Below are positions 17,545 to 24,623 of a stretch of DNA of 51,416 bases, one piece after another. Positions within the stretch are counted from its first letter, which is position 1; every line of letters starts with the position of its first letter. Origin of the DNA: an uncultured Dehalococcoidia bacterium. Its GTDB lineage: Bacteria > Chloroflexota > Dehalococcoidia > Lucifugimonadales > UBA3495. Under the pieces are notes generated by a model. That model was not told the origin of the DNA, did no database searches, and saw only the letters and a program-made list of their open reading frames with translations. Where the stretch lies: assembly GCA_950072105.1 (NCBI GenBank), contig CATMOE010000023.1, positions 1 through 51,416 of the forward strand, written 5' to 3'. Position numbers and translations under genes: made by a program.

Positions 17545-17621
17545 TGGTGGCGGCGCTCGGATTAGAGCCGAGACCTGACTCATTGCAGGAGAACCGCTTT
17601 GACCACCTAAGCTACGGGTCC
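17545..17621 (-). pseudogene. Degenerate copy of the array tRNA-Ala(UGC)
   Basis: Co-linear with 18032..18108; three acceptor mismatches, T loop CTCTAAT; CCA retained. Confidence 0.75.
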
Positions 17622-17630
17622 TGATTTCTA

Positions 17631-17705
17631 TGGTGGGGACGGCTGGATTCGAACCAACGGCCTGCCGCTTATCAGACGGCTGCTCTACCCCTGAGCTACG
17701 TCCCT
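17631..17705 (-). tRNA. tRNA-Ile(GAU)
   Basis: Loop CTGATAA, stem GCCGT/GCGGC, A1:C72 mismatch, CCA. Confidence 0.9.
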
Positions 17706-17706
17706 A

Positions 17707-17782
17707 TGGCGCGCCTGCCAGGAATTGAACCTGGGGCCTCAGGTTTAGGAAACCTTTGCTCTATCCGCTGAGCTACAGGCGC
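17707..17782 (-). tRNA. tRNA-Arg(CCU)
   Basis: Loop TTCCTAA, acceptor GCGCCTG/CAGGCGC, CCA. Confidence 0.9.
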
Positions 17783-17783
17783 T

Positions 17784-17861
17784 TGGTATCGGCGGTAGGA
17801 GTCGAACCCACACTGACCTGGTCTTAAGCCAGACGCCTCTGCCTGATTGGGCTACGCCGAC
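17784..17861 (-). tRNA. tRNA-Leu(UAA), short variable region
   Basis: Loop CTTAAGA, Leu-type D arm, A73, 5-nt variable region. Confidence 0.85.
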
Positions 17862-17865
17862 AAGT

Positions 17866-17942
17866 TGGTGGGCCAGGTAGGATTCGAACCTACACTCTTC
17901 CGTTTTTGAGACGGATGCGTCTGCCGATTGCGCCACTGACCC
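17866..17942 (-). tRNA. tRNA-Leu(CAA), short variable region
   Basis: Loop CTCAAAA, stem TCCGT/ACGGA, 5-nt variable region, A73-CCA. Confidence 0.88.
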
Positions 17943-17958
17943 GGGCATCGGTAATACG

Positions 17959-18031
17959 CGGTAACCCATGGGAATCGAACCCCCGGCTCTCCCATACGAG
18001 GTCGCACGTTACCGATTACACCGCTATGGTT
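17959..18031 (-). pseudogene. Pseudo-tRNA, isotype unassignable
   Basis: D-loop-like TAATCGGTAA and GGTTCGATTCC remain; anticodon and acceptor stems broken; ends CCG. Confidence 0.6.
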
Positions 18032-18108
18032 TGGTGGAAGCGCTCGGACTCGAACCGAGACCTGACTCTTTGCAGGAGAGCCGCTCTCGCCATTTAAGCT
18101 ACGCCCCC
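18032..18108 (-). tRNA. tRNA-Ala(UGC), C33
   Basis: G3:U70, A73, loop CCTGCAA. Confidence 0.88.
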
Positions 18109-18109
18109 A

Positions 18110-18195
18110 TGGATGATTTATTGAAGCCACCGGGAGGACTCCCGAACCCCGATTCGCAGCTTCAAAGATTGCCATGTCGCCTTCAGACGAATCAT
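18110..18195 (-). ncRNA. tRNA-Gln(UUG)-derived rearranged RNA ending in CCA
   Basis: CTTTGAAGCTGC shared with 20196..20266; closing ATGATT/AATCAT-CCA; 3' insert GTGGCTTCAA complementary to the anticodon arm. Confidence 0.45.
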
Positions 18196-18198
18196 TTG

Positions 18199-18284
18199 TG
18201 GCGGAAGGTGAGGGAATCGAACCCCCGAGCCCGTTAGGGCCAACTGTTTTCTAGACAGCGTCCTCGACCAACCGGACACCTTCC
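18199..18284 (-). tRNA. tRNA-Ser(AGA), A34
   Basis: Loop CTAGAAA in stem GCTGT/ACAGT, long variable arm, G73-CCA. Confidence 0.85.
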
Positions 18285-18287
18285 ATT

Positions 18288-18361
18288 TGGCAGTGGGAGT
18301 TGGAGTCGAACCAACGTTTCCTGGGTCAGAGCCAGACGTCCTACCGCTGAACGACCCCACT
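18288..18361 (-). tRNA. tRNA-Gln(CUG)
   Basis: Loop CTCTGAC, G73-CCA. Confidence 0.9.
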
Positions 18362-18362
18362 C

Positions 18363-18458
18363 TGGTTCCGAGGGCTGGAATTGAACCAGCGCCGCGCTGC
18401 GCCCTTCAGCAGAAGGGCTGCGCTTCAGGCAACCGCTCTACCCCTGAGCTACCTCGGA
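18363..18458 (-). tRNA. tRNA-Phe(GAA) with a 21-nt insertion 3' of the anticodon
   Basis: Perfect acceptor, D and T arms, loop CTGAAGC; extra CCTTCTGCTGAAGGGCGCAGC makes the gene 96 nt. Confidence 0.8.
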
Positions 18459-18473
18459 ATGCTGTAAGACAAA

Positions 18474-18567
18474 TGGCGGAAAGGGTGGGCTTCGAACCCA
18501 CGGGTCCTTCGGTTGAAGGACCGCCCGATTAGCAGCCGGGTGCCTTCAGCCTCTCAGCCACCTTTCC
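18474..18567 (-). tRNA. tRNA-Ser(GCU)
   Basis: Loop CTGCTAA, long variable arm GGTCCTTC/GAAGGACC, G73-CCA. Confidence 0.92.
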
Positions 18568-18570
18568 TTA

Positions 18571-18629
18571 TGGCGGCTTGGGAATCAATCCCACGTTCTT
18601 CCGCTCGATAAGCGGGCGCAACGGCCGCC
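18571..18629 (-). pseudogene. D-armless tRNA-like element, probably Asp-derived
   Basis: CCCGC-TTATCGA-GCGGA arm resembles tRNA-Asp TCCGT-CTGTCGA-GCGGA; T-like arm GGG-ATTGATT-CCC; ends GCCA. Confidence 0.5.
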
Positions 18630-18646
18630 CTTACTAATGATCTGAT

Positions 18647-18722
18647 TGGCACCAGGGGCAGGACTCGAACCTGCACTCCACCGATTAACAGGCGGTTGCT
18701 TTACCGATTAAGCTACCCTGGT
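18647..18722 (-). tRNA. tRNA-Asn(GUU)
   Basis: Loop CTGTTAA, G73-CCA. Confidence 0.92.
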
Positions 18723-18723
18723 G

Positions 18724-18795
18724 TGCGGAAGCCCGTCAGGCTCCGAATCAGCGCGCGCCCGGTTAAAAGCCGGAAGCTCTACTGGGGCACACTGA
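18724..18795 (-). pseudogene. Pseudo-tRNA-Lys(UUU)
   Basis: Intact anticodon arm TCCGG-CTTTTAA-CCGGG after GTAGAGC; T and acceptor arms degenerate, no CCA. Confidence 0.55.
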
Positions 18796-18800
18796 GATAT

Positions 18801-18887
18801 TGGTGCCAGAGGCAGGACTTGAACCTGCAAGAGGTTTCCCTCGACCGGTTTTGAGCCGGGTGCGTCTGCCGATTCCGCCACTCTGGC
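18801..18887 (-). tRNA. tRNA-Leu(CAA), long variable arm
   Basis: Loop CTCAAAA, variable arm GAGG-GAAA-CCTC, A73-CCA. Confidence 0.92.
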
Positions 18888-18900
18888 ATTTGATTGTCTT

Positions 18901-18974
18901 TGGAGGGCCTGACAGGGATCGAACCTGTGTCTCCAGCTTGGAGGGCTGGCACTCAGCCACTAAGTCACAGACCC
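18901..18974 (-). tRNA. tRNA-Gly(UCC), C33
   Basis: Loop CCTCCAA in CCAGC/GCTGG, U73-CCA. Confidence 0.88.
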
Positions 18975-19050
18975 TGGAGCCCCTGGAGAGATTCGAACTC
19001 TCGGCACTCTGGTTCGAAGCCAGATGCTCTGTCCGCTGAGCTACAGGGGC
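18975..19050 (-). tRNA. tRNA-Arg(UCG)
   Basis: Loop CTTCGAA in TCTGG/CCAGA; CCA abuts the next tRNA with no spacer. Confidence 0.9.
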
Positions 19051-19057
19051 ATGAGAT

Positions 19058-19133
19058 TGGTCAGCTTGCCTGGAATCGAACCAGGTCCTGCCGGGCCACA
19101 TCCGGCCGGGCTACCTTTACACCACGAAGCTGA
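19058..19133 (-). tRNA. tRNA-His(GUG), atypical (U-1:A73)
   Basis: Loop ATGTGGC in GCCGG/CCGGC; weak D stem; extra base in acceptor region. Confidence 0.75.
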
Positions 19134-19208
19134 TGGAGCCTTCGGGAGGACTTGAACCCCCCTCAACTGTTTACAAGACAGCCGCTCTACCGGATGAGCT
19201 ACGAAGGC
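19134..19208 (-). tRNA. tRNA-Thr(UGU)
   Basis: Loop CTTGTAA, acceptor GCCTTCG/CGAAGGC, CCA. Confidence 0.92.
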
Positions 19209-19212
19209 TGAT

Positions 19213-19287
19213 TGGAGTGTCTGACGGGAATCGAACCCGTATCCTCGCCATGGCACGGCGATGTCCTGCCGTTAAAACCACAGACAC
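19213..19287 (-). tRNA. tRNA-Gly(GCC)
   Basis: Loop GTGCCAT in TCGCC/GGCGA, U73-CCA. Confidence 0.88.
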
Positions 19288-19288
19288 T

Positions 19289-19364
19289 TGGTGGAATCGG
19301 AGAGACTCGAACTCTCAACGTTCGGTGTAAAAGACCGCTGCTCTGCCGATTGAGCTACGATTCC
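19289..19364 (-). tRNA. tRNA-Lys(UUU)
   Basis: Loop CTTTTAC, acceptor GGAATCG/CGATTCC, A73-CCA. Confidence 0.88.
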
Positions 19365-19367
19365 ATT

Positions 19368-19443
19368 TGGTGGGACCGGAGGGCGTCGAACCCTCAACCT
19401 CCCGGGTAAGAACCGGGTACTCTGCCGATTGAGTTACAGTCCC
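19368..19443 (-). tRNA. tRNA-Lys(CUU)
   Basis: Loop TTCTTAC in CCCGG/CCGGG, A73-CCA. Confidence 0.92.
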
Positions 19444-19444
19444 A

Positions 19445-19519
19445 TGGCGCCCCTAGCAGGAGTCGAACCCACAACTTCTGGGTAGAAACCAGACGCCCTC
19501 TCCGTTGGGCTATAGAGGC
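19445..19519 (-). tRNA. tRNA-Arg(UCU)
   Basis: Loop TTTCTAC in TCTGG/CCAGA, G73-CCA. Confidence 0.9.
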
Positions 19520-19520
19520 T

Positions 19521-19597
19521 TGGTTGAGCCGGGTGGAGTCGAACCACCAGTCTTCCGCTTATGAGACGGGTGCTGTAACCGATTTAGCTACGGCTCA
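19521..19597 (-). tRNA. tRNA(CAU): elongator Met or Ile2
   Basis: Loop CTCATAA, acceptor TGAGCCG/CGGCTCA, A73-CCA; no initiator features. Confidence 0.88.
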
Positions 19598-19715
19598 ATG
19601 ACAGCCGGGCCTCCCTGGCCCGAATCTTGACCCAGAGTGACTTGATATTGGACTTACGCGTGACCTTGGCCACGGCTCGGTCCTTCTTTTGATCGCGCCT
19701 TTCGCTCCGCTGCAT
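19584..19715 (-). CDS. 43-aa Lys/Arg-rich small protein inside the tRNA array; stop codon lies within tRNA(CAU)
   Basis: AGGAGG 4 nt before ATG; MQRSERRDQKKDRAVAKVTRKSNIKSLWVKIRAREARLSLSRS fills the longest non-rtcB gap in the array. Confidence 0.7.
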   Translation of the reverse strand: MQRSERRDQKKDRAVAKVTRKSNIKSLWVKIRAREARLSLSRS

Positions 19716-19732
19716 GAAGCCTCCTATTTTTC

Positions 19733-19804
19733 TGGCAGGGACGGTAGGAGTCGAACCCACGGGCTGGAGATTTGGAGGCTCCACCGCGCCCAGCGCTCGT
19801 CCCT
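19733..19804 (-). tRNA. tRNA-Trp(CCA), miniature D arm
   Basis: Loop CTCCAAA, G73-CCA, D arm GCGC-TGG-GCGC. Confidence 0.8.
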
Positions 19805-19808
19805 CTGA

Positions 19809-19862
19809 TGGTGTGCTGCGGCCGCAAATCCGGTCACTCGGATGCCGAACAAGCGGCGCAGC
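19809..19862 (-). ncRNA. Hairpin (minihelix-like) RNA ending in CCA
   Basis: Nested stems GCTGCG/CGCAGC, CCGC/GCGG, ATCCG/CGGAT, then ACACCA. Confidence 0.4.
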
Positions 19863-19870
19863 TTTGATTT

Positions 19871-19955
19871 TGGTAGGAGAGGAGGGACTCGAACCCCCAC
19901 GCCCGAAGGCATCTGTTTCTAAGACAGGTGTGTTTGCCAATTTCACCACTCTCCC
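19871..19955 (-). tRNA. tRNA-Leu(UAG)
   Basis: Loop CTTAGAA, long variable arm, A73-CCA. Confidence 0.92.
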
Positions 19956-20023
19956 ATATCTGCTCCATGGCCAGATAGGCTCGTCTTACGTAATTTACTG
20001 AGCCAGCCGAGCCATGTTTATTT

Positions 20024-20110
20024 TGGTGCCGCAGGAAGGATTTGAACCTTCAAGCCCGAACGGGCGGGTGGGTTACAGCCACTTGGTGTCACCGATCACC
20101 GCTCTACGGC
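20024..20110 (-). tRNA. tRNA-Tyr(GUA)
   Basis: Loop CTGTAAC, long variable arm GCCCG-TT-CGGGC, A73-CCA; D arm irregular. Confidence 0.85.
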
Positions 20111-20115
20111 ATATG

Positions 20116-20191
20116 TGGTGGGGCCGGGGGGAGTCGAACCCGCCGTCGACTGAATGAGAATCAGCCATCCTAACCATTAGACGACGGCCCC
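20116..20191 (-). tRNA. tRNA-Glu(CUC)
   Basis: Loop TTCTCAT in GCTGA/TCAGT, Glu-type D arm GTCTAATGGTTAGGAT. Confidence 0.88.
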
Positions 20192-20195
20192 AGGT

Positions 20196-20266
20196 TGGCA
20201 GCGGTACTAGGAGTCGAACCCAGCCTTGCAGCTTCAAAGGCTGCTCGATGCCCCGCACCTACCGCT
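20196..20266 (-). tRNA. tRNA-Gln(UUG), miniature D arm
   Basis: Loop CTTTGAA in GCAGC/GCTGC, G73-CCA, D arm GTGC-GGG-GCAT. Confidence 0.8.
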
Positions 20267-20267
20267 G

Positions 20268-20342
20268 TGGCAGCCCCGGCGGGAATCGAACCCGCATCTC
20301 TGCGTTACGAACGCAGTGCATTGGCCGTTGTGCTACGGGGCA
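20268..20342 (-). tRNA. tRNA-Thr(CGU)
   Basis: Loop TTCGTAA in CTGCG/CGCAG; U1:U72 mismatch; CCA. Confidence 0.82.
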
Positions 20343-20346
20343 GCCG

Positions 20347-21498
20347 TTAGGTCCCCTTGTAGTTGAGGACCTGGTGCAGCTCGTGGATCGGTCGGCACAG
20401 GTCTTTTTGGTCTGCCATGACCTGGTCGATATCCTTGTAAGCCGCGGGGTGCTCGTCCAGAAGCGCCTTAGCATGGTCTACATTCCAGGACTTCCCTTCC
20501 ATCAAGACGTAGAGACCGTCCACGCCATCGAGCGAAAGCTCTTTCTTGGCAGCGGTCCTGCTCCGTGACCGGCCTGCGCCGTGGGAAGAAGAGTTGTAGG
20601 GGTCCGGGTTGCCTAGCCCTTCGGTTATAAATGACTTGGTCCCCATGCTCCCAGGCACGACTCCCAGCTTGCCCGGACCGGCGTCGATGGCTCCCTTCCG
20701 GGTCACCCAGACCTGCTCACCGAAGTGGGTTTCCTGCTGAGTGAAGTTGTGGTGGCAGTTGATTCGCTGGACCTCCTTGCCCCACGTAAGCCGGAACAAC
20801 TGATCCAGGACCGCGTTCATCATCTGCTCCCGGTTCTCAAGCGCGTAGTCCTGAGCCCAGAGCATGTCGTTGATGTAAGCGCCGAACTCCGGCTGGGACT
20901 CCTGGAAGTAGGCCAGGTCTTTGTCCTCCAGCGGGACGCTGTTGCAGAGAGCCTTGGCAACTTTGATGTGCTGGATAGCCAGCTTGTTGCCGATGCCCCG
21001 CGAGCCGGAGTGAATCACAACCCAGACTGTCTCGTTCTCGTCCAGGCAGACCTCTACGAAGTGGTTGCCCGAACCCAAGGTTCCCAACTGCAGCACCGCT
21101 GTCTGAGCCATACTCTGGACTCGATCTGAACCTCGGTGCTTGTCCATCCAGAGCGCCGCGTCCCGGCTTAGATGGCTGGTCTTGGAGTGCTGCTTCCCTA
21201 CCCCGGCCGGAACGCTTCGGCTGATCTCGCCATGCAACCCGTCCAAGCTGTCTGGCAGTTTATCGGCACTGAGGTTGGTCTGTACGGCGATCATTCCGCA
21301 GCCGATGTCCACACCTACTGCCGCCGGGATAACCGCTCCCTTGGTTGGGATGACCGAGCCTACGGTGGCTCCCATCCCCAGGTGCGCATCTGGCATCAAA
21401 GCCACGTGCCCGGCGATAACCGCCGACCGGGACAACATCTCAGCCTGAAGCCTAGTGTTTTCGTCGAGTGTGCTTGCCCAATTCATTACCGAACCCAT
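20347..21498 (-). CDS. rtcB: RtcB 3'-phosphate/5'-hydroxyl RNA ligase
   Basis: MPDAH.G.G, PAAVGVDIGCGM, LGTLGSGNHF, HSGSRG, HHNF, RKGA, PGSMG, SHGAGR, DE.PAAYKDI; AGGAGG RBS. Confidence 0.97.
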   Translation of the reverse strand: MGSVMNWASTLDENTRLQAEMLSRSAVIAGHVALMPDAHLGMGATVGSVIPTKGAVIPAAVGVDIGCGMIAVQTNLSADKLPDSLDGLHGEISRSVPAGVGKQHSKTSHLSRDAALWMDKHRGSDRVQSMAQTAVLQLGTLGSGNHFVEVCLDENETVWVVIHSGSRGIGNKLAIQHIKVAKALCNSVPLEDKDLAYFQESQPEFGAYINDMLWAQDYALENREQMMNAVLDQLFRLTWGKEVQRINCHHNFTQQETHFGEQVWVTRKGAIDAGPGKLGVVPGSMGTKSFITEGLGNPDPYNSSSHGAGRSRSRTAAKKELSLDGVDGLYVLMEGKSWNVDHAKALLDEHPAAYKDIDQVMADQKDLCRPIHELHQVLNYKGT

Positions 21499-21519
21499 GA
21501 CTTCCTCCTATTTTTGTTT

Positions 21520-21595
21520 TGGCGGGGCCAACGGGTCTCGAACCCGTAACCTTCCGCTCGACAGACGGATGCTCTGCCAACTGAGCTATGACCCC
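21520..21595 (-). tRNA. tRNA-Asp(GUC)
   Basis: Loop CTGTCGA, G73-CCA. Confidence 0.92.
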
Positions 21596-21612
21596 TTTTG
21601 ACTAACTTGAAT

Positions 21613-21686
21613 CGGAAGCGGGACCGGGAGTCGAACCCGGAGAAGCTGGCTTATGAGACCTGCCCAGGGATCCGCCCATCCCCGCA
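21613..21686 (-). tRNA. Atypical tRNA(CAU), Pyl-like architecture, possibly pseudo
   Basis: Loop CTCATAA, perfect T arm, 5-nt D loop, extended anticodon stem, 3-nt variable region, U1:U72, ends CCG. Confidence 0.6.
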
Positions 21687-21689
21687 ACG

Positions 21690-21763
21690 TGGTAGCCCTG
21701 CCGAGAATCGAACTCGGTTATCCGGTTTGAAGGACCGGCGCCCTACCAATAGGCAACAGGGCC
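21690..21763 (-). tRNA. tRNA-Glu(UUC), C33
   Basis: Loop CCTTCAA in CCGGT/ACCGG, CCA. Confidence 0.85.
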
Positions 21764-21783
21764 AAATATAAAGACGATTGATC

Positions 21784-21865
21784 TGGAGGCATGCTTGGAG
21801 CCTAGGCCGGTGAGCATGCCAGTCACCAAAGCCTGGAACAGCCCGCACGGCTGCTTCCAAGCGCC
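21784..21865 (-). ncRNA. Structured non-tRNA RNA ending in UCCA
   Basis: Hairpins GCTTGGAAGCAGCC/GGCTGTTCCAGGC and GGCATGCT/AGCATGCC-TCCA; no T loop. Confidence 0.45.
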
Positions 21866-21874
21866 TTGCATGGT

Positions 21875-21948
21875 TGGTAGCCCCGCCTGGATTCGAACCA
21901 GGGGTCCCGGTATGTAACACCGGCGCCTTACCGCTTGGCCACGAGGCT
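21875..21948 (-). tRNA. tRNA-Val(UAC)
   Basis: Loop GTTACAT in CCGGT/ACCGG, A73-CCA. Confidence 0.88.
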
Positions 21949-21978
21949 CCGTTTATCAATTGATCAACTGTTCCTAGA

Positions 21979-21990
21979 TTGTTAAGGTGC
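21979..21990 (-). promoter_or_regulatory. boxA-like antitermination signal
   Basis: GCACCTTAACAA versus E. coli rrn boxA GCTCTTTAACAA (10/12), near the 5' end of the array. Confidence 0.5.
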
Positions 21991-22036
21991 TGGATCTCGT
22001 CAGGATTCGCACTGGCGTTACCTGCTGATTAATTTT

Positions 22037-22111
22037 TGGTCGGGGTGGGGAGATTCGAACTCCCGGCTCCCTGGTCCCAGGCCAGGTGCCCTACCGCTGG
22101 GCCACACCCCA
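22037..22111 (-). tRNA. tRNA-Pro(UGG), C33; first tRNA of the array
   Basis: Loop CCTGGGA in CCTGG/CCAGG, G72-A73-CCA. Confidence 0.9.
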
Positions 22112-22356
22112 ATGTGGTGGGGGATCATCCCCCCTGGGAGGGCGGCGGTGCGTGGCCGCCGCCCTCCCAGACCATGTGGTGGCCGGGCCGCCACCGTCAG
22201 TTATTCGATTTACTGAAACGTTCCTGTTCTGTTTTCCCATTTAAGAATCGAGTTTTCATGTCACCTCGATAGGGCTCTAATACCTTTTGTCTGGCGCCAA
22301 TTTGATTGGAACTCTCAAGATCACCAGGTTTCCGAACATTCACCACATGAGGCCAC

Positions 22357-22392
22357 AAAAAAAGAGCCCTGGGCTTTGCAGCACCAGGGCTC
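22357..22392 (-). terminator. Intrinsic terminator (attenuator) between the leader ORF and the tRNA array
   Basis: GAGCCCTGG-11 nt-CCAGGGCTC-TTTTTTT. Confidence 0.85.
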
Positions 22393-22417
22393 GTGTCAAG
22401 ACTCTATGTCTTAATCC

Positions 22418-22558
22418 CTAATCGCTGGCATACCCTCCGAATGTAGCGGTCGTCTCCTCACGGCCGAAATTCCAATTCGACGCATGATAAGTCGCGGCGC
22501 GCTCTGATGGGAGCGCTTTCTGGCTATTCAGTTGCCTTAACATTCTCGGTATGCCCAT
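22418..22558 (-). CDS. Putative 46-aa leader peptide
   Basis: MGIPRMLRQLNSQKALPSERAATYHASNWNFGREETTATFGGYASD*; between promoter and terminator; stop 25 nt before the terminator stem; RBS weak (AAGGT). Confidence 0.6.
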   Translation of the reverse strand: MGIPRMLRQLNSQKALPSERAATYHASNWNFGREETTATFGGYASD

Positions 22559-22618
22559 GATTTCCAACCTTTAGGTGTCGCTCTAGTGTTGCCACTTGTA
22601 AATGGCCTAGCTTCATTC

Positions 22619-22647
22619 AAAATACACTACGTTTTACAACTTGCCAA
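22619..22647 (-). promoter_or_regulatory. sigma70-like promoter of the leader/tRNA array
   Basis: TTGGCA-17 nt-TATTTT in an AT-rich divergent intergenic region. Confidence 0.55.
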
Positions 22648-22799
22648 TCCTTAAATAAGGTGTGTTTCAAACGAATATGTGACGTTATTCGTTGTCGCTA
22701 TTCCCCAGGCTGATCACCCGGCGGTACACAGCCACCTTGGAGCGTCCTATACTATCGGTATAATCTAGTGGATTCCCGCTGAACCTCGATCATAAGGAT

Positions 22800-24623
22800 G
22801 TGCCCCGCGAACCTAAGCCGTCCTTCGGACGTAACGAATATCGGTTCGTGGAAGAGCCAGTCGGCCCGAACCAACAGAAGAGAGCTACTCGGATGAACCG
22901 AAACCAGTTTCTGCGGCTTCTCAGTTATGTACGGCACTACTGGTATTTGCTGCCATTTGTTCTGGTAAGCATGATCGCCGCTACGCTGCTGGATCTGGTG
23001 GCGCCCTGGATCACCGGCGTGATCCTTATCGATAGAGTGATCATAGCTGGCGACGCTTCATTGTTGCCTTGGGTAGCGTTAGGACTTCTCGGGGCGGTGA
23101 TTCTCCGGCAGGTATTTGAATTCGCTCACCGGTATTTCTTAGCGTTATTGACCCAGCGGACCATACATCGCCTTCGGTGCGACCTGTATCAACATATCGA
23201 AGGCCTGCCGGTCAGCTTTTTCGCCGGAACTCCCGTGGGTGACATGGTCTCTCGCCAAGTGGGCGATGCCGATGCGATAGAAGAAGGCTTGAAGGCATTC
23301 GTCACCGAGGCGGGCGTCCATCTGGTTATGGTGTTTGGAGTGCTTGCGCTGCTTTTCGCGTTGAACGTCCAGTTGACGCTGGTCATCTTACCTTTTCTGC
23401 TGATCCTAGCGGTGGTGATGCATATCTTTCGGCGGATGGTTAAGGGGTTTTCCCGGCAAGTACGAGACAGTATGGGCCGCTTGGCCACTCTGGCCACGGA
23501 AACCCTGTCGGGCATCAGGATAGTGAAAGCCTTCGCCATGGAGCGGGCCGAGCTGATCCGGTTCCGTGGAACGTCCCAGGAGATATTAACCGCCAGCGTC
23601 CGGCTGGCCCGCCTGGAAGGCTACTATCATGTTTCGGTGGAGATGATCCTGATCGGCAGCGTTGTGTTGGTGATTTGGCTTGCTGCCCCTAGGGTGCTGG
23701 CCGAGCAGATGACCGTGGGCGCGCTGGTCGCTTACTTGGGATACCTTGCCCGCGTCCAGGAACCCCTCAAAGGCCTCAGCAAGGCCAACTTCAGGATCCA
23801 AAAAGCCATGGGCGCGGCTCAGCGGATCTTCGCCGTGCTAGATGTTCCTACTGAGGAATCTAAGTCGACCGGGACGGTTGTTCTACCCAAAGCCCAGGGA
23901 CACCTGCGGTTCGAGGAGGTCTCTTTTGGGTATCGAGACGACAAACCGGTGCTCAACGATTTTTCTTTAGAGATACAACCGGGAGAGGCAGTGGCCTTGA
24001 TGGGGCCGAGCGGGGTCGGTAAGACCACGATAGTCAACCTTTTACTCCGTTTCTACGCTCCTACCCAGGGGAGTATCCTACTGGACGGCCACCCTTTGGA
24101 TAGTTTAGACGCCCATTCCCTTCGCAAACAGATCGCGGTGGTGAATCAAGACACCTTCCTCTTCTCGACCACTGTCGGGGAAAATATCCTTTACGGCAAA
24201 CCCGAAGCCAATCACGACGAGGTTGAACAAGCGGCCCGGGCCGCCAACATCCATGACTTCATCGCTACCTTGCCCCAGGGATATGACACCGAGGTGGGCC
24301 AGCGAGGAGTGGCCCTATCCGGTGGCCAACGCCAGCGAATCGCTTTGGCCCGGGCATTCTTGAAAGACGCGCCGATACTGATATTGGACGAGGCTACCAC
24401 CAGCGTGGATTCGGAGGCTGAAGCGTTGATCCAGGACGCGTTGGCCAACCTGATGGGGGGGCGCACCACTCTTATAATCGCCCACCGCCTCTCGACGCTC
24501 CACCACGCCGGCCGCATCATAATTCTGCAGGATGGACGAATCGCGGAAGAAGGTTCACACCAGGAGTTGTTGGCGGGACAAGGCCTTTATAAGCGCTTAT
24601 ACGACCTGCAAGCCCTTGCATAG
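22800..24623 (+). CDS. ABC exporter, fused permease/ATPase (MsbA/Sav1866-like)
   Basis: TM domain; GPSGVGKT, LSGGQRQR, ILILDEAT, IAHRLST; start may be 22893. Confidence 0.95.
   Translation: MPREPKPSFGRNEYRFVEEPVGPNQQKRATRMNRNQFLRLLSYVRHYWYLLPFVLVSMIAATLLDLVAPWITGVILIDRVIIAGDASLLPWVALGLLGAVILRQVFEFAHRYFLALLTQRTIHRLRCDLYQHIEGLPVSFFAGTPVGDMVSRQVGDADAIEEGLKAFVTEAGVHLVMVFGVLALLFALNVQLTLVILPFLLILAVVMHIFRRMVKGFSRQVRDSMGRLATLATETLSGIRIVKAFAMERAELIRFRGTSQEILTASVRLARLEGYYHVSVEMILIGSVVLVIWLAAPRVLAEQMTVGALVAYLGYLARVQEPLKGLSKANFRIQKAMGAAQRIFAVLDVPTEESKSTGTVVLPKAQGHLRFEEVSFGYRDDKPVLNDFSLEIQPGEAVALMGPSGVGKTTIVNLLLRFYAPTQGSILLDGHPLDSLDAHSLRKQIAVVNQDTFLFSTTVGENILYGKPEANHDEVEQAARAANIHDFIATLPQGYDTEVGQRGVALSGGQRQRIALARAFLKDAPILILDEATTSVDSEAEALIQDALANLMGGRTTLIIAHRLSTLHHAGRIIILQDGRIAEEGSHQELLAGQGLYKRLYDLQALA

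What the first reader, a model, noticed from the sequence alone, without database searches (positions are those of the whole stretch)
22357..22558. Leader-peptide attenuator that could sense general translation failure
Seen: the 46-codon uORF uses 18 amino acids (no Cys, which the array also lacks, and no Val). It is front-loaded with codons expected to be rare in a GC-rich genome (ATA, AGA, TTA, AGG, CAA within codons 3-9; later AAA, CCA, TCA, ACA, GGA), most matching array anticodons. Its stop lies in GCGATTAGGG (22425-22416), which can pair with CCCTGGTGC (22389-22381) in the terminator's 5' arm, enclosing the hairpin TTAAGAC/GTCTTGA. Inference: a ribosome reaching the stop masks the antiterminator so transcription terminates, whereas stalling anywhere upstream frees it and the tRNAs and rtcB are made. 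Unlike trp/his leaders this would monitor the whole tRNA pool. Caveats: the antiterminator has G-U pairs and a bulge, and the RBS is weak.
Basis: partly seen in the sequence, partly recalled or inferred. Interest (0 to 1): 0.85.

Follow-up and report, generated by a model that had tools for sequence, protein, structure and literature searches.

The report
Ribosome-sensing switch before spare tRNA genes
A short reading frame and a transcription stop signal sit in front of a bank of about 31 spare tRNA genes and an RNA-repair gene, and the same layout in related bacteria suggests the bank is switched on only when ribosomes fail to finish translating; this kind of switch is known, but its use on a tRNA bank was not found in the papers searched.

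Summary
The uORF (22558-22418), terminator (22392-22357) and competing helix are as described. They lie between a sigma70-type promoter and a 31-tRNA array containing rtcB. Homologues support an attenuator: 21 units in 20 genomes (about six lineages), all ahead of tRNA arrays, rtcB or Ro60. The stop codon lies 27-31 nt before the terminator arm, and the terminator covaries. A stop-proximal antiterminator can form in 21 of 21 units against 13 of 44 ordinary terminators, but it shows no covariation beyond shuffles. The frame is intact in 19 of 21 and peptide sequence is unselected, which points to a sensor of translation completion. In this copy, modelling favours antitermination only for early or late stalls. 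An rRNA-type boxA follows the terminator. No transcript evidence was obtained. It works like the whiB7 and PA5471.1 leaders; control of a tRNA array was not found in the papers searched. This scan noted similar leaders before, on phage and flavobacterial arrays. New variant of a known kind.

The parts
22619..22647 (-). sigma70-type promoter (-35 at 22647-22642, -10 at 22624-22619); TSS predicted near 22612
   Evidence: Only - strand site in 19000-24000 (chance level 2.1 sites). A near-identical copy has a different 5/6 match at -35. TTGAC-type promoters lie upstream of the uORF in most homologues read. TSS inferred.
22418..22558 (-). uORF, 46 codons, weak RBS
   Evidence: Open frame with a start codon ending at the same relative stop in 19 of 21 units. 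Translation inferred, not shown.
22548..22555 (-). segment 1: codons 2-4, can pair (8 bp) with 22434-22427 and compete with the antiterminator
   Evidence: Strong only in this copy and G554 (-18.2 and -15.2 kcal/mol; the other 19 units -4 to -11).
22416..22430 (-). antiterminator strand: last four codons and the stop; two registers against the terminator 5' arm
22396..22414 (-). inner 7-bp hairpin between stop and terminator
   Evidence: Its four aligned pairs are kept in 83-90% of cells across 21 units.
22357..22392 (-). intrinsic terminator: 9-bp stem, inner stem with GNRA loop, U7
   Evidence: 98.4% of cells paired; 4 of 9 pairs with changes on both sides.
21979..21990 (-). boxA-like element after the first tRNA
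   Evidence: Differs by one base over 11 from the element in the host 16S rRNA leader on contig C50. Only hit of the pattern in the genome; similar elements at the heads of other arrays. nusB and rho present. The name boxA and its role are recalled.
17548..22111 (-). long tRNA array: 29 genes by default ARAGORN, 31 relaxed, plus a degenerate Ala-like copy at 17548-17621
20347..21498 (-). rtcB RNA ligase inside the array
   Evidence: Pfam PF01139, E 4e-107.

Best explanation
A ribosome-controlled transcription attenuator that keeps a horizontally acquired tRNA array and rtcB silent until translation falters. Shown by sequence: a promoter, uORF, inner hairpin and intrinsic terminator in fixed spacing. 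Inferred: RNA polymerase transcribes the leader, and a ribosome that reaches the last 4-6 codons or the stop covers the antiterminator strand, so the terminator forms at about 22357. If the ribosome lags or stalls earlier (antibiotic, damaged ribosome, cleaved or uncharged tRNA), the free strand pairs with the terminator 5' arm before the 3' arm is made, and polymerase reads through. Also inferred: a boxA after the first tRNA then loads Nus factors so the untranslated array escapes Rho. The input is completion of translation, not a particular amino acid. In this copy early stalls (codons 1-7) should induce best.
For: 21 homologous units in 20 genomes, every one ahead of a tRNA array or cluster, rtcB or Ro60/TROVE. 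Six of these genomes came from genome-wide searches that did not use gene context. Stop-to-arm distance is 27-31 nt while uORF length ranges from 29 to 69 codons. The terminator and inner hairpin covary (0 of 500 shuffles reach the score). The antiterminator register pairs in 91.7% of cells against 29-47% when slid. 21 of 21 units have at least 5 of 6 arm bases paired upstream and the two folds within 5 kcal/mol or better, against 13 of 44 ordinary terminators with the same arm. In the nascent-RNA model, masking the stop region removes the antiterminator in all 13 units tested. In 13 units of one family the frame stays open in 13 of 13 (64 of 5000 column shuffles do so) with pN/pS 1.57. Known precedents have the same logic, and an L-array with co-regulated rtcB is induced by translational stress in Anabaena.
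Against: No transcript or ribosome data: RNA-run contigs cover the leader no better than neighbouring DNA. The antiterminator shows no covariation beyond shuffles (209 of 500), and GC-rich arms often find an upstream partner by chance (17 of 44). At equilibrium the terminator wins in this copy (P 1.0), so a kinetic trap is required (barrier about 15 kcal/mol; no control). G554 keeps the RNA end almost unchanged although its frame has two stops and no promoter is visible. G892 lost the aligned start. A second frame is also open in 13 of 13, though it has an ATG in only 2. The RBS is weak in most units. 13 of 20 genomes belong to one family, and 11 of those were found by looking upstream of rtcB. 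Two rtcB-linked tRNA clusters in the same order (G782, G650) have no such leader.
Confidence: 0.74

Rival explanations
1. Dedicated pan-tRNA sensor: the uORF is selected to hold nearly all amino acids and rare codons so that loss of any tRNA stalls it and turns on the spare set.
For: Array-linked leaders exceed shuffled frames in amino-acid variety: 6 of 6 in this family (mean z 0.99; two have all 20), 15 of 16 in Acidimicrobiia and 2 of 2 in the proteobacterial loci. Leaders of rtcB alone do not (4 of 13, mean z -0.49). Array leaders are longer (45-69 codons) than 13 of 14 rtcB-only leaders (29-31). In whiB7, uORF composition sets which starvation is sensed.
Against: This copy is unremarkable (18 of 20, P 0.39). 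Ordinary coding windows score nearly as high in Acidimicrobiia and proteobacteria (z 1.13 and 1.10); only in this family is the control lower (z 0.17 and -0.09). Rare-codon and anticodon tests are at or near chance. The units are related.
Confidence: 0.25
2. A switchable terminator controlled by something other than the ribosome (protein, small RNA, uncharged tRNA or metabolite), with the ORF incidental.
For: G554 conserves the RNA end without an intact ORF. Peptide sequence is not under selection. The RBS is weak. The naked leader is more structured than shuffles (z -3.3).
Against: No Rfam family, including T-box and riboswitches, matches the leader in the window or in the homologue loci scanned. 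Sequence upstream of the last ~8 codons is not conserved between lineages, yet an in-frame stop keeps its place in 21 of 21.
Confidence: 0.12
3. A plain constitutive terminator ending a small-protein or small-RNA gene, with the array transcribed from its own promoter or by leak-through.
For: The terminator wins at equilibrium. Chance antiterminators are common.
Against: No promoter-like site on the - strand between the terminator and 19000. The unit travels with rtcB, tRNA or Ro60 operons only. The peptide is not conserved, and complementarity is kept in 21 of 21.
Confidence: 0.1

Closest known systems
whiB7/wblC uORF attenuator of mycobacteria and other Actinobacteria (10.1101/2023.06.02.543512, passages read)
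   Same: Long, sequence-variable uORF; complete translation gives a Rho-independent terminator and stalling gives an antiterminator; senses general translation stress, including loss of tRNAs and synthetases.
   Different: Controls a transcription factor with positive feedback, and its uORF is Ala-rich. Here the output is tRNAs, RtcB or Ro60 directly. No sequence comparison was made.
PA5471.1 leader of armZ (RtcB-like)-prfH, Pseudomonas aeruginosa (PMC13041342, PMC12057347, passages read)
   Same: Leader-peptide transcription attenuator upstream of an RtcB-like gene; induced by ribosome-targeting antibiotics and by a tRNA maturation defect (cca mutant).
   Different: No tRNA array. The leader is much shorter (13 codons, recalled) and the stop is far from the terminator. 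The review notes that the mechanism still needs confirmation.
Anabaena PCC 7120 trn L-array with co-regulated rtcB (PMC8421152, passages and section 18; PMC10272220, passages)
   Same: Long supernumerary tRNA array, silent until translational stress, linked to rtcB.
   Different: Controlled by the repressor TrcR at promoter repeats. 'attenuat' occurs 0 times in either main text. Chloroflexi were listed there as having no L-arrays.
E. coli toiL uORF (PMC12121999, abstract only)
   Same: A uORF that senses many translation stresses by stalling at different positions.
   Different: Acts on translation initiation with Rho-dependent termination, not on an intrinsic terminator.
trp/his-type leader-peptide attenuators (recalled)
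   Same: Competing 1:2, 2:3 and 3:4 helices; this copy has a candidate 1:2 helix.
   Different: No run of control codons; the output is not amino-acid biosynthesis.

Membership tests
Ribosome-mediated transcription attenuators (whiB7/PA5471.1 type) | promoter, uORF and intrinsic terminator upstream of the regulated genes | tested here: met
Ribosome-mediated transcription attenuators (whiB7/PA5471.1 type) | antiterminator overlapping the uORF and exclusive with the terminator | tested here: met
   21 of 21 against 13 of 44 controls; conserved pairing without covariation
Ribosome-mediated transcription attenuators (whiB7/PA5471.1 type) | uORF is translated | tested here: inconclusive
   Frame and stop conserved in 19 of 21; weak RBS; no ribosome data
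Ribosome-mediated transcription attenuators (whiB7/PA5471.1 type) | read-through rises when translation is impaired | not testable with these tools
   RNA runs were contigs at depth 2-5
trp/his-type amino-acid attenuators | run of control codons for one amino acid, upstream of its biosynthetic operon | tested here: not met
T-box or riboswitch leaders in Rfam | match to a curated covariance model | tested here: not met
   No meaningful match over the leader in the window (best E 0.18, 16.5 bits against a gathering score of 88) or in 13 related loci
tRNA L-arrays | long, non-periodic, supernumerary array absent from close kin | tested here: met
   29-31 tRNAs; 49 more calls elsewhere in the genome. 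Its rtcB was not found with this query in 2 of 2 congeners
TrcR-regulated trn operon | TrcR repressor and direct repeats over the -10 box | not tested
   No TrcR search was run
Acidimicrobiia MAR-leader family (found here) | peptide or RNA homology | tested here: not met
   A profile of 20 peptides did not list the window uORF down to E about 11; model R1 did not hit those loci

The most novel reading that the evidence does not exclude
Mobile tRNA arrays carry their own host-independent control cassette. A long leader, selected to sample most amino acids, reads the state of the whole tRNA pool through an attenuator, and a boxA placed after the terminator then gives rRNA-type antitermination. 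Such leaders arose at least three times (this family, Acidimicrobiia, proteobacteria), closing a loop in which tRNA loss induces spare tRNAs and their repair ligase.
Probability: 0.25. Interest if true: 0.8.

Novelty: new variant of a known kind. Interest (0 to 1): 0.58.

Why it matters
How long tRNA arrays are controlled has, in the papers found, been worked out only for Anabaena, where a host repressor does it. A cis-acting attenuator needs only RNA polymerase and ribosomes, so it would explain how these arrays stay silent and stress-inducible after moving between phyla. It would also tie RtcB, Ro60 and spare tRNAs into one translation-rescue response in uncultured marine bacteria. The 300-nt cassette can be tested in a laboratory strain, which makes the question directly testable.

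Tried and rejected
Blastn of the leader and array head against 60 relatives found only tRNA matches. RtcB searches found no close array-bearing relative apart from near-identical copies. The terminator pattern gave 0 hits in viral contigs. The loose pattern hit 66 of 401 genomes; of the strand matches inspected in 70 loci, four genomes carried this element and the rest were rplJ leaders or ordinary terminators. Model R1 false positives: rpsT terminators and gene ends up to 31.3 bits, and two phylum-level hits at 42.6 and 34.8 bits, one inside a gene and one after an ATP synthase gene. So bit score alone does not separate members: G235 (32.7 bits) was accepted on its ORF, antiterminator and position. 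RNA runs X1-X4 gave contigs over the leader (22416-22566; 22314-22568, crossing the U tract) but also over the intergenic stretch and the ABC gene at similar depth, so they are uninformative. Peptide homology to the Acidimicrobiia leaders was rejected. Rare-codon, Cys and anticodon arguments were rejected. A second ATG at 22616 lies 3 nt after the -10 box and is probably not transcribed. An internal SD-like run 18-19 nt before the stop is strong here, but its distance varies from 16 to 38 nt, so no role is claimed.

Full report
Setting. The window is contig C23 of genome G000 (4.08 Mb, 57.6% GC). The host is probably a SAR202-like member of Dehalococcoidia. This is inferred from named RtcB neighbours and from the SAR202 title of the record holding the closest named leader; no marker gene was tested. 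On the - strand the order is: a sigma70-type promoter (22647-22619), a 46-codon uORF (22558-22418), a 7-bp hairpin, an intrinsic terminator with U7 (22392-22357), then 29-31 tRNA genes with rtcB inside. The array is supernumerary (49 other tRNA calls). Its rtcB was not found with this query in either congener.

Observation. Taken alone they are not beyond chance. The stop-region duplex has P 0.21 against shuffles. 18 amino acids occur in 27% of gene windows and 40% of shuffled open frames. CAA, AAA and GGA are common here. Four rare codons in codons 2-10 give P 0.09, and 49 of 600 genes have as many. Array tRNAs read 35 of 46 codons against a chance mean of 35.5.

Homologues. Looking upstream of rtcB-linked tRNA clusters gave two tandem units in G020 and one in G953 with the same 3' end. 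A strict terminator pattern matched 3 of 202 family genomes (G000, G020, G554) and its reversed control matched 0. A loose pattern matched 66 of 401 order genomes; I inspected 70 loci and kept G793, G685, G710 and G732. A covariance model from these 9 units hit 6 of 151 order genomes, adding G235 directly before rtcB; two hits were ordinary gene ends. In 39 further rtcB upstream regions it found 11 units, all of family f29, and 4 rpsT terminators at lower scores. In 151 phylum genomes it found two false positives only. The total is 21 units in 20 genomes of about six lineages. Seven units precede tRNA arrays or clusters, two of these with a TROVE/Ro60 gene, and 14 precede rtcB alone. The element is patchy: apart from the truncated G020 locus, none of the 57 rtcB loci L200-L256 carries it, and two small rtcB-tRNA clusters lack it.

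What is conserved. The stop codon ends 27-31 nt before the terminator arm in all 21 units, while the uORF runs 29-69 codons. Eighteen units start with ATG and one with TTG. G892 lost the aligned start. G554 has two in-frame stops and no visible promoter, though its first four residues match the window's with three synonymous changes. The terminator stem pairs in 98.4% of cells, with double changes at 4 of 9 pairs, and no shuffle of 500 reaches the covariation score of terminator plus inner hairpin. The antiterminator has two registers. One about 7 nt upstream holds in 91.7%, against 29-47% when slid, but without covariation beyond shuffles (209 of 500). With fixed geometry, 21 of 21 units have at least 5 of 6 arm bases paired upstream and the two folds within 5 kcal/mol or better, against 13 of 44 ordinary terminators with the same arm. 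A looser test shows how easy chance pairing is: 17 of 44. In 13 f29 units the frame stays open in all (64 of 5000 column shuffles), yet pN/pS is 1.57, so the peptide itself is not selected. Another frame is also open but has an ATG in only 2 units.

Mechanism. Shown: the layout and its conservation. Modelled: with a 30-nt ribosome footprint, the antiterminator is lost once the ribosome reaches the last 4-8 codons in all 13 units tested. It forms for any earlier stall in 12 of them. The window is the exception. An 8-bp helix between codons 2-4 and 22434-22427 competes, so the antiterminator dominates only for stalls at codons 1-7 (0.98-0.99) and 37-40 (0.6-0.9), and is 0.15-0.37 otherwise. This resembles the 1:2 helix of classical attenuators and would make the early rare codons useful, but it is an equilibrium model with one ribosome. 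At equilibrium the terminator wins in the window (-30.1 against -26.0 kcal/mol, barrier about 15), so read-through must be kinetic. Inferred: translation of the uORF, the direction of control and the inducing stresses. A boxA-like element at 21990-21979 matches the one in the host's 16S leader. Similar elements lie at the heads of the G953, G554 and G793 units and of many Acidimicrobiia arrays; nusB and rho are present. I infer rRNA-type antitermination after the gate; the boxA name and role are recalled. In G020 a group II intron fragment begins right after the second terminator. IIC introns favour terminators (PMC1702495, search listing), but its class was not tested.

Analogues. Actinomycetota arrays with rtcB, mostly Acidimicrobiia where named, have an unrelated, near-leaderless uORF starting Met-Ala-Arg, 39-51 codons long. 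It is followed by a C-rich tract and a hairpin without a U run. Indels within the frame are multiples of three and pN/pS is 1.11. Two proteobacterial arrays have 64-66-codon frames before strong terminators. Amino-acid variety exceeds shuffles in array leaders (6 of 6, 15 of 16, 2 of 2) but not in rtcB-only leaders of this family (4 of 13). Ordinary coding windows explain most of this outside the window's family. The pan-tRNA idea is therefore open but weak, and this copy adds nothing to it.

Transcripts. Four RNA runs were available as contigs only. Two cover the leader at 100% identity, but neighbouring intergenic and ABC-gene DNA is covered at similar depth, so nothing follows.

Comparison with known systems. 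The logic is that of the whiB7 uORF attenuator, described as sensing general translation stress with uORF composition setting sensitivity (10.1101/2023.06.02.543512, passages). It is also that of PA5471.1 upstream of the RtcB-like armZ, which responds to a tRNA CCA defect (PMC13041342 and PMC12057347, passages). The output resembles the Anabaena trn L-array with rtcB, which uses the repressor TrcR instead (PMC8421152, passages and section 18; PMC10272220, passages). No Rfam family covers the leader. Eight literature searches listed no paper on an attenuator or boxA at a tRNA array. I saw only listings for most hits and read no supplements, and subscription journals are largely missing. This scan's earlier notes report similar leaders before phage and flavobacterial tRNA arrays; I did not check them. 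No note matched this sequence or place.

Verdict. Real, conserved and most likely a translation-sensing attenuator (0.74). It is a new variant of a known kind: known logic, a new RNA family and a tRNA-array target. Interest 0.58.

Noticed in passing
window 21990-21979 (-); L270, L276, L282 and Acidimicrobiia array loci: boxA-like element near the head of tRNA arrays, matching the host 16S rRNA leader; suggests Nus-dependent antitermination of arrays.
   Followed up: partly
L036, L046, L057, L059, L065, L073, L083, L090, L096, L129, L139, L143, L145, L146, L158, L163, L171, L173: Unrelated conserved Met-Ala-Arg uORF at the head of rtcB tRNA arrays. The stop lies in a hairpin and is followed by a C-rich tract, possibly a Rho-dependent attenuator; no Rfam match in the three scanned.
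   Followed up: partly
L080:1900-2190, L082:2780-3050: Proteobacterial tRNA arrays near rtcB have 64-66-codon frames with 19-20 amino acids before strong terminators.
   Followed up: partly
L257:7890-8970: Two attenuator units in tandem, then a group II intron fragment right after the second terminator, then six tRNAs and rtcB.
   Followed up: partly
L276 (G554): Unit with a near-identical RNA end but two in-frame stops, no visible promoter and a nine-tRNA array: possibly decayed or constitutive.
   Followed up: partly
window 22200-22112 and 21870-21770 (-): Very stable GC-rich hairpins between the terminator and tRNA-Pro and between tRNA-Val and tRNA-Glu; function unknown.
   Followed up: no
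window 17548-17621, 18199-18284, 18032-18108 (-): A degenerate copy of the Ala(TGC) tRNA, a Ser tRNA with an unusual AGA anticodon, and an Ala tRNA with C at position 33.
   Followed up: no
window 19445-19519, 18032-18108, 18647-18722 region: Arg(TCT) and Ala(TGC) were called only in the array; the assembly is 92% complete, so host copies may be unassembled.
   Followed up: no
window 17512-14362 (-): No terminator-like site was sought after the array; a 107-aa ORF, an ECF sigma factor and a VWA protein follow on the same strand and could be co-transcribed.
   Followed up: no
L283, L288, L297-L306, L310, L313, L326, L335, L341-L343, L346: Leaders before genes that look like rplJ (L10; recognised by eye) share the same terminator arm across the order.
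   Followed up: no
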